Shown here in pieces: positions 60,101-63,100 of a stretch of 64,000 nt of DNA (position 1 is the stretch's first letter; each line of letters opens with the position of its first letter). Where the stretch lies: the NCBI RefSeq assembly GCF_056712565.1, contig NZ_CM160072.1, one strand, 5' to 3'. Made by a program: the position numbers.

Positions 60101-63100
60101 ACCAGTTCTGATGGCAGCGCAGGTAAGTTGAAAGTGAGCAATGCAAGCCTGAAGGGTGTTTCCGTTAACACTGGATTTACGTCAGGAACAAGTGCGACTT
60201 CTGTTACATTCGATAATGTGGTTCAAGGTAACAATCTTACGGATGCTGATACCATTACATCGACCTCTGTCGTGTGGAGCGCACAAGGTAACACCGATGC
60301 TAATGGCAACGTAGACGTCACGATGACCAAAAACGCCTATACGGATGTTGTGACGGATTCTTCAGTTAATAATGTCGCTCAGGTACTGGATACGGGTTAC
60401 ACCAATAACGACCTGTACACTAGTCTGAACGTAGGAACGACTGCTGAACTGAACAGTGCGCTGAAACAAATTAGCGGCAGCCAGGCAACAACGGTATTTA
60501 ATGAAGCACGAGTGTTAAGTAACCGCTTCAGCATGTTGTCCGATGCAGCACCGGAAGTTGCAAACGGTCTGGCCTTCAACGTGGTAGCGAAAGGCGACCC
60601 GCGTGCTGAACTGGGTAACGACACACAGTACGACATGATGGCGCTGCGTAAATCTCTGACGCTGACTGAACATCAGAACCTGAGTCTGGAATACGGGATT
60701 GCTCGTCTGGAGGGTAATGGTTCAGATACCGCAGGCGATAACGGAGTGACAGGCGGTTACAGCCAGTTATTCGGTCTGAAACACCAGATGGCCTTTGACA
60801 ACGGTATGAACTGGAATAACGCCCTGCGTTATGATGTGCACCAGCTCGACAGCAGTCGCTCGATAGCTTACGGCGACGTCAACAAAACCGCTGATGCTAA
60901 TGTGAAACAACAGTACCTGGAGTTCCGTAGTGAAGGAGCAAAAACCTTTGAGCTGCGTGAAGGGCTGAACGTCACTCCATATGCCGGGGTTAAACTGCGT
61001 CACACACTGGAAGGTGGCTATCAGGAACGCAATGCGGGTGACTTTAACCTGAGCATGAACAGCGGCAGCGAAACGGCGGTGGACAGCATCGTTGGGCTGA
61101 AACTGGACTATGCAGGGAAAGAAGGCTGGAGTGCGAACGCCACGCTGGAAGGTGGGCCGAATCTGAGCTATGTGAAAAGTCAACGTACTGCGAGTATTTC
61201 GGGCGCTGGAAGCCAACGTTTTAACATTGACGATGGTCAGAGTGGCGGTGGTTTCAACAGCCTGGCGACGATGGGTGTGAAATACAGCAGCCAGGAAAGT
61301 GCGTTGCAGGTAGATGCATTCCACTGGAAAGAAGACGGCATCAGTGATAAAGGTGTGATGCTAAACTTCAAGAAAACGTTCTAATTTTTAGCATGTAATA
61401 CATAAACCGCAACGCTGATACAGGTTGCGGTTTTTTTATTGCCGGATGCGGTGCTTGACGTGTCTTAACCTTTCTGGGGTTTCGTGTCTTTCAGGGCAAC
61501 AGTACAACTCATCCCGCAATCTTGTTTACACCCTCGCATTATTTATCTCTATTCATTTCTATACTGATTTTTCTTAATCCGTTTTATTACAGGGCAGGGT
61601 GCGATGAGCAGCAACACATTTACTCTCGGTACAAAATCCGTTAACCGTCTTGGTTATGGCGCGATGCAACTGGCTGGTCCTGGGGTTTTTGGCCCCCCAA
61701 GAGATCGCCACGTCGCTATAACCGTGCTGCGCGAGGCGCTGGCATTGGGCGTCAATCATATTGATACCAGCGACTTTTATGGTCCGCACGTCACCAATCA
61801 GATTATCCGCGAAGCGCTTTATCCGTACTCTGACGACCTGACAATTGTCACTAAAATTGGTGCGCGGCGTGGAGAGGACGCTTCCTGGTTACCCGCATTT
61901 TCTCCGGCAGAGCTGCAAAAAGCGGTACACGATAATCTACGTAATCTCGGCCTGGACGTACTGGATGTGGTTAACCTGCGCGTTATGATGGGGGATGGTC
62001 ATGGCCCAGCGGAAGGATCGATTGAGGCCAGCCTGACAGTGCTGGCGGAGATGCAACAACAAGGCCTGGTAAAACATATTGGCCTGAGTAACGTCACACC
62101 GACGCAGGTTGCAGAGGCGCGAAAGATTGCCGAAATCGTCTGCGTGCAGAACGAATACAACATTGCCCACCGTGCTGATGACGCAATGATTGATGCTTTG
62201 GCTCGTGATGGCATTGCCTACGTGCCATTCTTTCCGCTCGGGGGCTTTACGCCGCTGCAATCCTCCACGCTTTCCGATGTTGCTACGAGCCTGGGTGCAA
62301 CACCAATGCAGGTGGCGCTGGCGTGGCTGTTACAACGTTCACCGAATATTTTGTTGATTCCTGGAACATCTTCTGTTGCGCATTTACGGGAGAATATGGC
62401 TGCTGAAAAATTGCATCTTTCTGAGAAAGTGTTGTCTACGTTGGATGGTATTTCGCGAGAATAACGAATATACAAAAGGGAAAGATGCATTTCCCTTTTG
62501 TTTCTTTTTTAATGGCATGGAGTGCATATGTTTAAGGCCAGGATTTGCGGCTGGATAATCAGTGAAAAGGCGATGGATTCATTGATTCGTACAGTGATAG
62601 ATGGTATCTCACTGATATCCAGACGGTAATCAAACAGATGTGTAGGGCATTCATCCACCACATCTTGATATATTCCGAATTTACGTTGATGCTGCGCGTT
62701 GTGATATCTCCGCCGTCGGAATTGATGCACCATAGAGCAAACTGAATATCACGGAATGATAAATGACGCTCTACCAGATAAAACCGCTCTTTCAGTCGCT
62801 GTTAAGGCCGACGATGTTTTGGCTTTATAAGCACCATGTTACAGCGAATCACATCACTCTTGCTGCACTGGCGCTTTCTCTTCTTACCGGATTGCTGTTG
62901 GTGTTGGTGGCACAACCCATCCTCTTTTTGCTATTGCCCATCGTGCTTTTTATCCGTATGACGCTCAATGCGCTGGATGGCATGTTGGCGCGTGAGTGCA
63001 ATCAGAAAACACGTCTGGGGGCGATTTTGAATGAAACTGGCGATGTTATTTCCGATATTGCGCTCTATTTACCGTTTTTATTTTTACCGGAAAGTAACGC

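What the first reader, a model, noticed from the sequence alone, without database searches (positions are those of the whole stretch)
62465..62762. ydbC–ynbA intergenic region lacks ydbD
Only ~300 bp separate ydbC from ynbA; K-12 has the ~770-aa ydbD gene here by my recollection. Short track ORFs in the gap (62376..62558 +, 62509..62733 -) show no recognisable domain. This may be a deletion scar or the ancestral state.
Basis: partly seen in the sequence, partly recalled or inferred. Interest (0 to 1): 0.25.

Follow-up and report, generated by a model that had tools for sequence, protein, structure and literature searches.

The report
Old ydbD deletion scar in E. coli
The short gap between pdxI (ydbC) and ynbA is the decayed stump of the ydbD gene, left by an old in-frame deletion that about 9% of sequenced E. 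coli share; it is an ordinary gene-loss polymorphism.

Summary
In the window 298 bp (62465-62762) separate pdxI/ydbC from ynbA, whereas K-12 carries the 768-aa ydbD gene there.

- **Remnants:** the gap keeps the ydbD upstream region, start codon and codons 1-10 (62528-62557). These are joined in frame to codons 756-761 (62558-62575). A 14-bp secondary deletion follows, then the last two codons and the stop (62576-62585), then a diverged ydbD-ynbA spacer.
- **Why K-12 did not show it:** the 3' remnant is invisible against K-12 because K-12's ydbD 3' end is a different allele class. It aligns significantly with ydbD of E. albertii and of another Escherichia species.
- **Outgroups:** both of those species carry ydbD directly after pdxI. 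A cryptic Escherichia clade lost ydbD independently, with different junctions.
- **Frequency:** the same scar is in 482 of 5,426 complete E. coli genomes, as two sub-types 91.5% identical in the remnant. That suggests an old allele.
- **Other content:** no domain, Rfam family or mobile-element trace was found in the gap.

One unexplained feature is that the 99 bp before ynbA are only about 80% identical between ydbD-less and ydbD-bearing haplotypes. Interest is low.

The parts
61604..62464 (+). pdxI (ydbC), pyridoxine 4-dehydrogenase, intact 286 aa
   Evidence: ORF. RefSeq annotation of the identical stretch in ATCC 11775. 95.6% nt identity to K-12 pdxI.
62472..62511 (+). pdxI intrinsic terminator: 12-bp-stem hairpin 62472-62501 followed by a T-run
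   Evidence: Terminator scan. The same hairpin is present in K-12 at L001 4675-4700. A sub-threshold Rfam hit here (patAB leader, 25.9 bits against a gathering score of 92) is taken as chance.
62502..62527 (+). retained ydbD upstream region (ribosome-binding region, '...AATGGCATGGAGTGCAT' before the ATG)
   Evidence: Aligned, with few substitutions, to K-12 and E. albertii; the same region is present in L099 and the cryptic Escherichia clade (sequences printed).
62528..62557 (+). ydbD 5' remnant: start codon and codons 1-10 (MFKARICGWI), the n-region of the signal peptide
   Evidence: TBLASTN 8/10 identical to K-12. 10/10 identical to L099 YdbD. Homology with K-12 stops exactly at 62557.
62558..62575 (+). 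ydbD 3' remnant, codons 756-761 (ISEKAM, from IREQAM), joined in frame to codon 10
   Evidence: Alignment with ydbD of L099/L100 and E. albertii. The match starts at nt 2266, codon 756, in both K-12 and L099 numbering. The strain S3 version is 16/18 identical to L099.
62576..62585 (+). ydbD 3' remnant after a 14-bp secondary deletion: 'GATTCATTGA', the last two codons plus the old stop codon (TGA at 62583-62585)
   Evidence: 10/10 identical to the end of L099 ydbD (...DMIH*). In a shuffle test on the first 28 nt of the remnant, 0 of 2000 shuffles reached the observed score (z 4.7 for the window, 6.0 for S3).
62528..62629 (+). residual 33-codon ORF (MFKARICGWIISEKAMDSLIRTVIDGISLISRR*) created by the deletion and the frameshift; probably a non-functional by-product
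   Evidence: Translation. No Pfam family. Not annotated in RefSeq. Between the B2 and S3 forms it differs at 5 positions, 3 of them amino-acid changes.
62586..62663 (+). distal part of the old ydbD-ynbA spacer, strongly diverged; not alignable to K-12
   Evidence: No blastn match to K-12. Colinear alignment of the whole 106 bp (62558-62663) with the L099 ydbD 3' end plus spacer gives z 3.6-4.7, with 1-2 of 2000 shuffles reaching the score. Found only in the 482 short-form genomes.
62664..62762 (+). proximal ynbA upstream spacer including the ynbA ribosome-binding region; a diverged allele class linked to the deletion
   Evidence: 80% identity to K-12 against 99% in the first 100 nt of ynbA. 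Bimodal across genomes: 482 genomes at >=90% identity, about 3,974 at 60-90%, with the listed examples at 79-82%.
62763..63368 (+). ynbA, CDP-alcohol phosphatidyltransferase family, intact 201 aa
   Evidence: ORF, RefSeq annotation, 96.7% nt identity to K-12.

Best explanation
The 298-bp pdxI-ynbA gap is a decayed pseudogene stump of ydbD. In an ancestor that had pdxI-ydbD-ynbABCD, one illegitimate recombination event joined ydbD codon 10 to codon 756. This removed 745 codons (2,235 bp) in frame, with no obvious microhomology at the junction. A later 14-bp deletion and point substitutions degraded what was left. Everything that defines the protein is gone: most of the signal peptide, the body, and all but nine codons of the C-terminal DUF2773 domain. 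The gene is therefore lost, while pdxI, its terminator, and ynbA and the start of ynbB (as far as the window reaches) remain intact. The allele arose once; it may predate the deep splits within E. coli (inferred from divergence only). It now co-exists with the ydbD-bearing allele. Shown here: the breakpoints, the remnants, the outgroup state and the population frequency. Inferred: the order of events, the age, and that the residual 33-codon ORF is a by-product. Also inferred, not shown: the ydbD promoter and start now lie about 235 bp upstream of ynbA with no terminator-like site between them, which may alter ynbABCD transcription.
For: - K-12 has ydbD between pdxI and ynbA.
- Homology with K-12 runs to 62557 and resumes at 62664, so 2,348 bp of K-12 correspond to 106 bp here.
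- Codons 1-10 of ydbD are retained.
- The 106 bp begins with ydbD codons 756-761, then a 14-bp gap, then the last codons and stop, when aligned to ydbD of L099/L100 and E. albertii. Shuffle tests give z 3.6-6.0, with 0-2 of 2000 shuffles reaching the score. The best local match of the S3 form in the whole L099 ydbD falls exactly at its 3' end.
- Outgroups: E. albertii has pdxI-ydbD-azoR. Another Escherichia species (L099, azoR/hrpA about 90% identical to E. coli) has pdxI-ydbD-ynbABC-azoR.
- A cryptic Escherichia clade has an independent ydbD deletion with different junctions, from codon 3 to about 14 bp before the ynbA ATG.
- The same scar is in 482 of 5,426 complete genomes. 398 are >=99% identical to the window and 83 are 91.5% identical.
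- Over the whole gap the B2 form and the S3 form differ at 13 of 298 positions (4.4%), similar to the flanking genes (3.3-4.3%).
- There is no match to plasmids or phages and no Rfam or Pfam content.
Against: - Against K-12 alone the 106 bp is not significantly similar to ydbD (z 1.7-2.2, and control targets score as high). The 3'-remnant assignment therefore rests on a short alignment (28 nt plus a diverged spacer) to non-K-12 alleles.
- The shuffle-test target was chosen after the alignment had been seen.
- The spacer before ynbA is far more diverged between the two haplotypes (about 20%) than simple decay since a deletion within E. coli would predict. The history is therefore more complicated than one deletion. 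Options are an older coalescence, introgression, or replacement of the 3' end of ydbD plus spacer in the ydbD-bearing lineage.
- No core-genome phylogeny was built, so the single origin and the age are inferred from sequence identity only.
Confidence: 0.9

Rival explanations
1. Ancestral state: the short gap is the original pdxI-ynbA intergenic region, and ydbD was inserted later in the lineage leading to K-12-like strains.
For: Pseudocitrobacter and Kluyvera have pdxI next to azoR with neither ydbD nor ynbABCD. YdbD homologues were found only in Escherichia, so ydbD is a young, genus-restricted gene that must have been gained at some point.
Against: The gap contains the ydbD ribosome-binding region, the start codon and the first 10 codons, which form half of a signal peptide. 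It also contains the last codons and stop of ydbD. An insertion would not leave both gene ends in the empty site. E. albertii and L099 carry ydbD in this exact position.
Confidence: 0.03
2. Replacement by foreign or filler DNA: ydbD was replaced by an unrelated 106-bp fragment, such as a mobile-element scar or a horizontally transferred 'switched' intergenic region.
For: The 106 bp has no blastn match in any ydbD-bearing E. coli genome and no significant similarity to K-12 ydbD. The adjacent 99 bp belong to a distinct allele class, about 80% identical. Other strains at this locus do show IS-mediated rearrangements (ISEc13 in E2348/69, IS1 in VL7S7).
Against: The fragment aligns colinearly and significantly with the 3' end of ydbD from other Escherichia species. 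There is no match in plasmid or phage collections. It occurs at only one place per E. coli genome. No IS-like features or matches to mobile elements were found. A weaker version remains possible: the whole short haplotype, scar plus spacer, may have entered E. coli by recombination from a diverged Escherichia lineage.
Confidence: 0.05
3. The remnant has a new function: the retained ydbD promoter, start codon and 33-codon ORF act as a leader, small protein or new promoter arrangement that rewires ynbABCD expression, and the allele is maintained by selection.
For: The ydbD upstream region and start are 100% conserved between the B2 and S3 short forms (93/93 nt), while the rest of the scar differs by 8.5%. 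No terminator-like site lies between the ydbD start and ynbA. The ynbA ribosome-binding region differs from the otherwise conserved 'ATCAAGGATTGATAATG'. The allele is old and sits at intermediate frequency.
Against: The residual ORF shows 3 amino-acid changes out of 5 differences between sub-types, so purifying selection is not evident. It has no Pfam, Rfam or RefSeq annotation. The left spacer is also highly conserved in ydbD-bearing genomes (96.8%). No sigma-70-like promoter was detected by the simple scan. No expression data were examined.
Confidence: 0.1

Closest known systems
E. coli K-12 ydbD (b1407), RefSeq 'DUF2773 domain-containing bactofilin', 768 aa
   Same: Same chromosomal position, directly after pdxI and its terminator. 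Same upstream region, start codon and first 10 codons. The last codons and stop are recognisable when non-K-12 alleles are used for comparison.
   Different: Codons 11-755 are missing, and a 14-bp deletion shifts the frame. Only nine codons of the DUF2773 domain (aa 688-768 in K-12) survive. It is a gene remnant, not a gene.
Independent ydbD deletion in a cryptic Escherichia clade (loci L096-L098, L102; 'unclassified Escherichia')
   Same: Same genes on both sides (pdxI and ynbA). The ydbD start codon and upstream region are retained and the gene body is lost.
   Different: The junctions differ: the left break is at about codon 3 and the right break about 14 bp before the ynbA ATG. This leaves a 52-74 bp gap and no 3' remnant. 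It is a separate event.
Larger deletions at the same locus in other E. coli (pdxI-azoR adjacency in AHB5; pdxI-ISEc13-azoR in E2348/69; IS1-mediated loss of pdxI and the 5' part of ydbD in VL7S7)
   Same: The same variable region between pdxI and azoR, with loss of ydbD.
   Different: Those events also remove ynbABCD or pdxI, and some carry an IS element at the junction. The window's allele removes only the ydbD body and has no IS trace.
'Switched' intergenic regions, where alternative non-homologous or highly diverged regulatory regions sit upstream of a conserved gene. This is described in E. coli pangenome studies; I recall it from memory and did not check it in a paper here.
   Same: The 205 bp upstream of ynbA exist as two allele classes. 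106 bp are unalignable to K-12 and 99 bp are about 80% identical, and they are flanked by genes 96-99% identical.
   Different: Here the difference is largely explained by a gene deletion plus an allele-class difference at the ydbD 3' end. Import of unrelated regulatory DNA was not demonstrated.

Membership tests
ydbD / DUF2773 gene (functional member) | Intact ORF of about 768 aa with an N-terminal signal peptide | tested here: not met
   Only a 33-codon ORF remains (62528-62629). TBLASTN finds only codons 1-10.
ydbD / DUF2773 gene (functional member) | C-terminal Pfam DUF2773 domain (PF10971; aa 688-768 in K-12) | tested here: not met
   K-12 YdbD matches PF10971 at E 9e-46. The remnant ORF has no Pfam match.
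ydbD pseudogene remnant (deletion scar) | Syntenic position between pdxI and ynbA | tested here: met
ydbD pseudogene remnant (deletion scar) | Homology to the 5' end of ydbD (upstream region, ATG, first codons) | tested here: met
   62465-62557 is 96.8% identical to K-12. Codons 1-10 are identical to L099 YdbD.
ydbD pseudogene remnant (deletion scar) | Homology to the 3' end of ydbD | tested here: met
   Met against the L099 and E. albertii alleles (z 4.7-6.0, 0 of 2000 shuffles). Inconclusive against the K-12 allele (z 1.7-2.2).
ydbD pseudogene remnant (deletion scar) | Outgroup taxa carry the intact gene at the same site | tested here: met
   E. albertii and the Escherichia species of L099. 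E. fergusonii, E. marmotae and E. ruysiae were not examined by name.
IS- or mobile-element-mediated deletion | IS element, terminal inverted repeats or a mobile-element fragment at the junction | tested here: not met
   There is no plasmid or phage match for the 106 bp and only one copy per genome. IS elements are seen at this locus only in other strains.
Switched intergenic region (horizontal regulatory transfer) | Two diverged intergenic allele classes flanked by conserved orthologous genes | tested here: met
   The right spacer is bimodal: >=90% identity in 482 genomes and 60-90% in about 3,974, with listed examples at 79-82%. The first 100 nt of ynbA are 99% identical.
Switched intergenic region (horizontal regulatory transfer) | Demonstrable foreign source of the alternative allele | tested here: inconclusive
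   No donor was found. The allele is closest to other Escherichia ydbD 3' ends but only 67-68% identical to L099 in the proximal spacer.
Known RNA family in the gap | Rfam match at or above the gathering score | tested here: not met
   The only hit is the patAB leader at 25.9 bits against a gathering score of 92, on the pdxI terminator.

The most novel reading that the evidence does not exclude
The ydbD-less haplotype is not just a passive scar. It would be an ancient, selectively maintained alternative promoter and leader arrangement for the ynbABCD phospholipid-related operon. In this reading the ydbD promoter and start are fused to a short ORF, and the ynbA ribosome-binding region is altered. 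The haplotype would have been kept alongside the ydbD-bearing one since before E. coli diversified, or introgressed from another Escherichia lineage.
Probability: 0.1. Interest if true: 0.35.

Novelty: already known. Interest (0 to 1): 0.1.

Why it matters
[quoted passage not shown] Its absence from many B2 extraintestinal and probiotic strains (UTI89, IHE3034, Nissle 1917, the type strain ATCC 11775) shows it is dispensable in those backgrounds. The work has three practical uses. First, it settles the direction of the event as loss, not gain. Second, it gives exact junctions that could be used to annotate a ydbD pseudogene remnant or as a lineage marker. Third, it flags the unusually diverged 99 bp upstream of ynbA as a place where ynbABCD regulation might differ between lineages.

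Tried and rejected
- **K-12 comparison of the 106 bp:** blastn, local and global alignment of 62558-62663 against K-12 ydbD and spacer gave nothing significant. For a while this suggested foreign filler DNA. It was rejected once divergent ydbD alleles were brought in.
- **FIDSYSD hint:** a TBLASTN match to YdbD aa 140-146 is about 57% identical (12 of 21) at nucleotide level and in another frame. I treat it as chance.
- **Microhomology idea:** the shared 9-mer GGATAATCA between the window's left junction and K-12's spacer is explained better by the codon 10 / codon 756 junction. I did not pursue it.
- **Mobile-element source:** searches of plasmids and phages were negative.
- **RNA and signal scans:** Rfam gave only a sub-threshold hit on the pdxI terminator. 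The promoter scan found no sigma-70-like site in the gap.
- **Strain A24:** its 77% partial match comes from an assembly with many frameshifted genes, so I ignored it.
- **Genome scan:** the one genome-contig scan, with PdxI as query, returned mostly distant Proteobacteria with 73-79% identical PdxI. Only four loci were informative.
- **Literature:** searches on ydbD found no paper on its presence or absence across lineages.

Full report
**1. Observation**

This leaves a gap of 298 bp, 62465-62762. Window 62300-62900 is 100% identical to E. coli ATCC 11775 (NZ_CP033092.2). RefSeq annotates nothing between pdxI and ynbA in that record. In K-12, RefSeq places ydbD between the same two genes: 2,307 bp, 768 aa, 'DUF2773 domain-containing bactofilin'.

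**2. Breakpoints**

Blastn against the K-12 locus shows two blocks of homology:
- window 61604-62557 matches K-12 L001 3805-4757 at 95.7%;
- window 62664-63368 matches L001 7106-7810 at 94.3%.

So 2,348 bp of K-12 correspond to 106 bp in the window (62558-62663). Homology on the left continues past the pdxI terminator hairpin (62472-62501) and through the ydbD upstream region. It then covers the first 10 codons of ydbD (62528-62557, MFKARICGWI vs K-12 MLKARNCGWI). These 10 codons are the positively charged start of a signal peptide. They are also conserved in E. albertii and in L099. An empty site that had never held ydbD would not contain the gene's ribosome-binding region, start codon and half a signal peptide.

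**3. What the 106 bp is**

Against K-12 it looks unrelated. The best local score is no better than shuffles. A colinear global alignment gives only z 1.7-2.2, and control targets inside ydbD score as well. It matches no plasmid or phage. In E. coli it is found once per genome, and only in the 482 genomes that have the short gap.

The answer came from divergent ydbD alleles. I found these through a YdbD protein search, a YnbA protein search and their encoding contigs. In a multiple alignment with ydbD of E. albertii (L089, L093) and of another Escherichia species (L099, L100), the 106 bp resolves as follows:
- It begins with 'ATCAGTGAAAAGGCGATG'. In strain S3 this is 'ATCAGGGAAAAGGCAATG', 16/18 identical to L099 'ATCCGGGAACAGGCAATG'.
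- A 14-bp gap follows.
- Then comes 'GATTCATTGA', 10/10 identical to the end of L099 ydbD (...D M I H stop).

The first block is codons 756-761 in both K-12 and L099 numbering, and it is in frame with codon 10. Dinucleotide-preserving shuffles give z 4.7-6.0 for the first 28 nt (0 of 2000 reach the score) and z 3.6-4.7 for the whole 106 bp (1-2 of 2000). An unconstrained local search of the S3 form against the whole L099 ydbD lands exactly on its 3' end.

K-12's ydbD ends differently (...RKLDELY stop, against ...KTLDMIH or ...KKLDMIY stop). That is why the comparison with K-12 alone failed.

The anatomy is therefore:
- codons 1-10 at 62528-62557;
- codons 756-761 at 62558-62575;
- a 14-bp secondary deletion;
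- the last two codons and the old stop at 62576-62585;
- the old ydbD-ynbA spacer at 62586-62762.

The frameshift leaves a 33-codon ORF (62528-62629). It has no Pfam family.

**4. Direction of the event**

- E. albertii has ...ydbL-pdxI-ydbD-azoR-hrpA, that is, ydbD present and ynbABCD absent.
- L099 has pdxI-ydbD-ynbA-ynbB-ynbC-azoR. Its azoR and hrpA are about 90% identical to E. coli, so it is another Escherichia species.
- Pseudocitrobacter and Kluyvera have pdxI next to azoR with neither ydbD nor ynbABCD.
- A cryptic 'unclassified Escherichia' clade (L096-L098, L102) has pdxI-ynbA separated by only 52-74 bp. It again retains the ydbD upstream region and 'ATGTTTAA'. This is joined to the last ~14 bp before the ynbA start, so it is an independent deletion with different junctions.

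Together with the retained gene ends, this makes ydbD presence the older state at this site. The window's arrangement is derived.

**5. Population picture**

| State | Complete E. coli genomes (of 5,426) | Source |
|---|---|---|
| K-12 ydbD segment present | 3,992 (3,836 nearly full length) | |
| This exact scar | 482 | |
| pdxI/ynbA flanks matched, neither of the above | about 790 | |

- Of the 482 scar genomes, 398 are >=99% identical to the window. These include UTI89, IHE3034, Nissle 1917 and ATCC 11775.
- Another 83 carry a sub-type 91.5% identical in the 106 bp, for example strain S3, whose PdxI protein is identical to K-12's.
- The other arrangements include pdxI directly next to azoR (AHB5), pdxI-ISEc13-azoR (E2348/69), and an IS1-mediated deletion of pdxI and the 5' part of ydbD (VL7S7).

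Both scar sub-types share the junction and the 14-bp deletion, so the allele arose once. Across the whole gap they differ at 13 of 298 positions (4.4%). This is about the same as the flanking genes between the same two genomes (pdxI 4.3%, ynbA 3.3%). That suggests the scar is about as old as the split between these lineages. No phylogeny was built, so this is an inference.

**6. Unexplained residue**

The 99 bp just upstream of ynbA (62664-62762) fall into two classes that track the deletion exactly:
- the same 482 genomes are >=90% identical to the window;
- about 3,974 ydbD-bearing genomes fall at 60-90%, with the listed examples at 79-82%.

Yet the first 100 nt of ynbA are 99% identical between the window and K-12. 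For scale, K-12 against the other species L099 is 73% in this spacer, and the window against L099 is 68%. Strain CE0021a is a recombinant: it has the short-form left part and a K-12-type ribosome-binding region.

In the window the sequence before the ynbA ATG is 'ATCACGGAATGATAAATG'. K-12, L099 and the cryptic clade all have 'ATCAAGGATTGATAATG'.

Several readings fit these data, and I could not separate them:
- the two haplotypes are older than the rest of the region;
- one of them was imported from another lineage;
- the 3' end of ydbD plus spacer was replaced in the ydbD-bearing lineage.

No terminator-like site lies between the ydbD start and ynbA, in the window or in K-12. ydbD and ynbABCD may therefore be co-transcribed, and the deletion may change ynbABCD expression. 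That is speculation. The only hint found is that ydbD and ynbC moved together in one transcriptome table (PMC13313352).

**7. Comparison with what is known, and verdict**

This is an ordinary loss of an accessory gene by deletion, followed by pseudogene decay. It sits at a locus that is rearranged in many strains. YdbD itself is poorly characterised. Pfam recognises only DUF2773 at aa 688-768. Homologues were found only in Escherichia. [quoted passage not shown]

Nothing in the gap matches a known RNA family, protein family or mobile element. Interest is low at 0.1. The only mildly interesting loose end is the deeply diverged ynbA upstream region linked to the scar.

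Noticed in passing
window 53070-61384 (site near 57524): The large autotransporter gene upstream of pdxI (ydbA; a single 8,316-bp CDS in the ATCC 11775 RefSeq record) is split in the window into two ORFs, 53070-57545 and 57560-61384. 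Over 56301-64000 the window differs from the RefSeq record only by one missing A ('GGCACAG' vs 'GGCAACAG') at about 57524. This could be a true frameshift or a sequencing difference between assemblies of the same strain.
   Followed up: partly
window 53700-57150: ydbA contains long internal near-tandem repeats. Units of roughly 270-860 bp are 80-94% identical to each other, seen as many off-diagonal blast hits.
   Followed up: no
window 62664-62762: The ynbA upstream spacer is bimodal across E. coli: >=90% identity in the 482 short-form genomes and 60-90% in ydbD-bearing genomes (listed examples 79-82%). Identity changes sharply to 99% at the ynbA start. The ynbA ribosome-binding region is altered ('ACGGAATGATAAATG' vs the conserved 'AAGGATTGATAATG'). 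Strain CE0021a (L094) is a recombinant of the two classes.
   Followed up: partly
L005, L006, L007, L009 (other E. coli genomes at this locus): The pdxI-azoR interval is a rearrangement hotspot. Arrangements seen are pdxI directly next to azoR with ydbD and ynbABCD all missing, pdxI-ISEc13-azoR in E2348/69, and an IS1-mediated deletion of pdxI plus the 5' part of ydbD. About 790 of the 5,264 genomes that matched the pdxI/ynbA flanks have neither full ydbD nor the window's scar.
   Followed up: partly
L012-L087 (genome-contig hits to PdxI): PdxI has 73-79% identical homologues in Mesorhizobium, Rhizobium, Burkholderia, Corallococcus, Methylocapsa and others. Within Enterobacteriaceae it was found next to azoR only in Escherichia, Pseudocitrobacter and Kluyvera. 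The distribution is patchy and suggests horizontal transfer.
   Followed up: no
L090, L091 (E. coli assemblies GCA_012548355.1, GCA_000407865.1): These loci carry a ydbD allele of 711 aa with an internal in-frame loss of about 171 bp. Its pdxI-ydbD spacer is 100% identical to the window's left spacer, but its 3' end and spacer are K-12-type. In L091 ynbA is disrupted by IS fragments. In L090 the downstream region is replaced by HTH and ABC-transporter genes.
   Followed up: partly
L088/L089 vs L092/L093 (E. albertii): E. albertii carries two very different allele classes of pdxI-ydbD. pdxI is 81.6% vs 93.6% identical to E. coli, and ydbD is 81.7% vs 90.2% identical to K-12. The flanking azoR and hrpA identities to E. 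coli are the same in both. This suggests recombination with E. coli-like DNA at this locus.
   Followed up: no
L099 (Logan SRR22121090 contig): This Escherichia-like contig has pdxI-ydbD-ynbA-ynbB(split)-ynbC-azoR with ynbD missing. It is another variant of the ynb cluster.
   Followed up: no
L002 (ATCC 11775 RefSeq annotation): Locus tags jump from EAS44_RS13510 (pdxI) to EAS44_RS13500 (ynbA). The unused tag RS13505 may mean that a feature was once annotated in the gap and later withdrawn.
   Followed up: no
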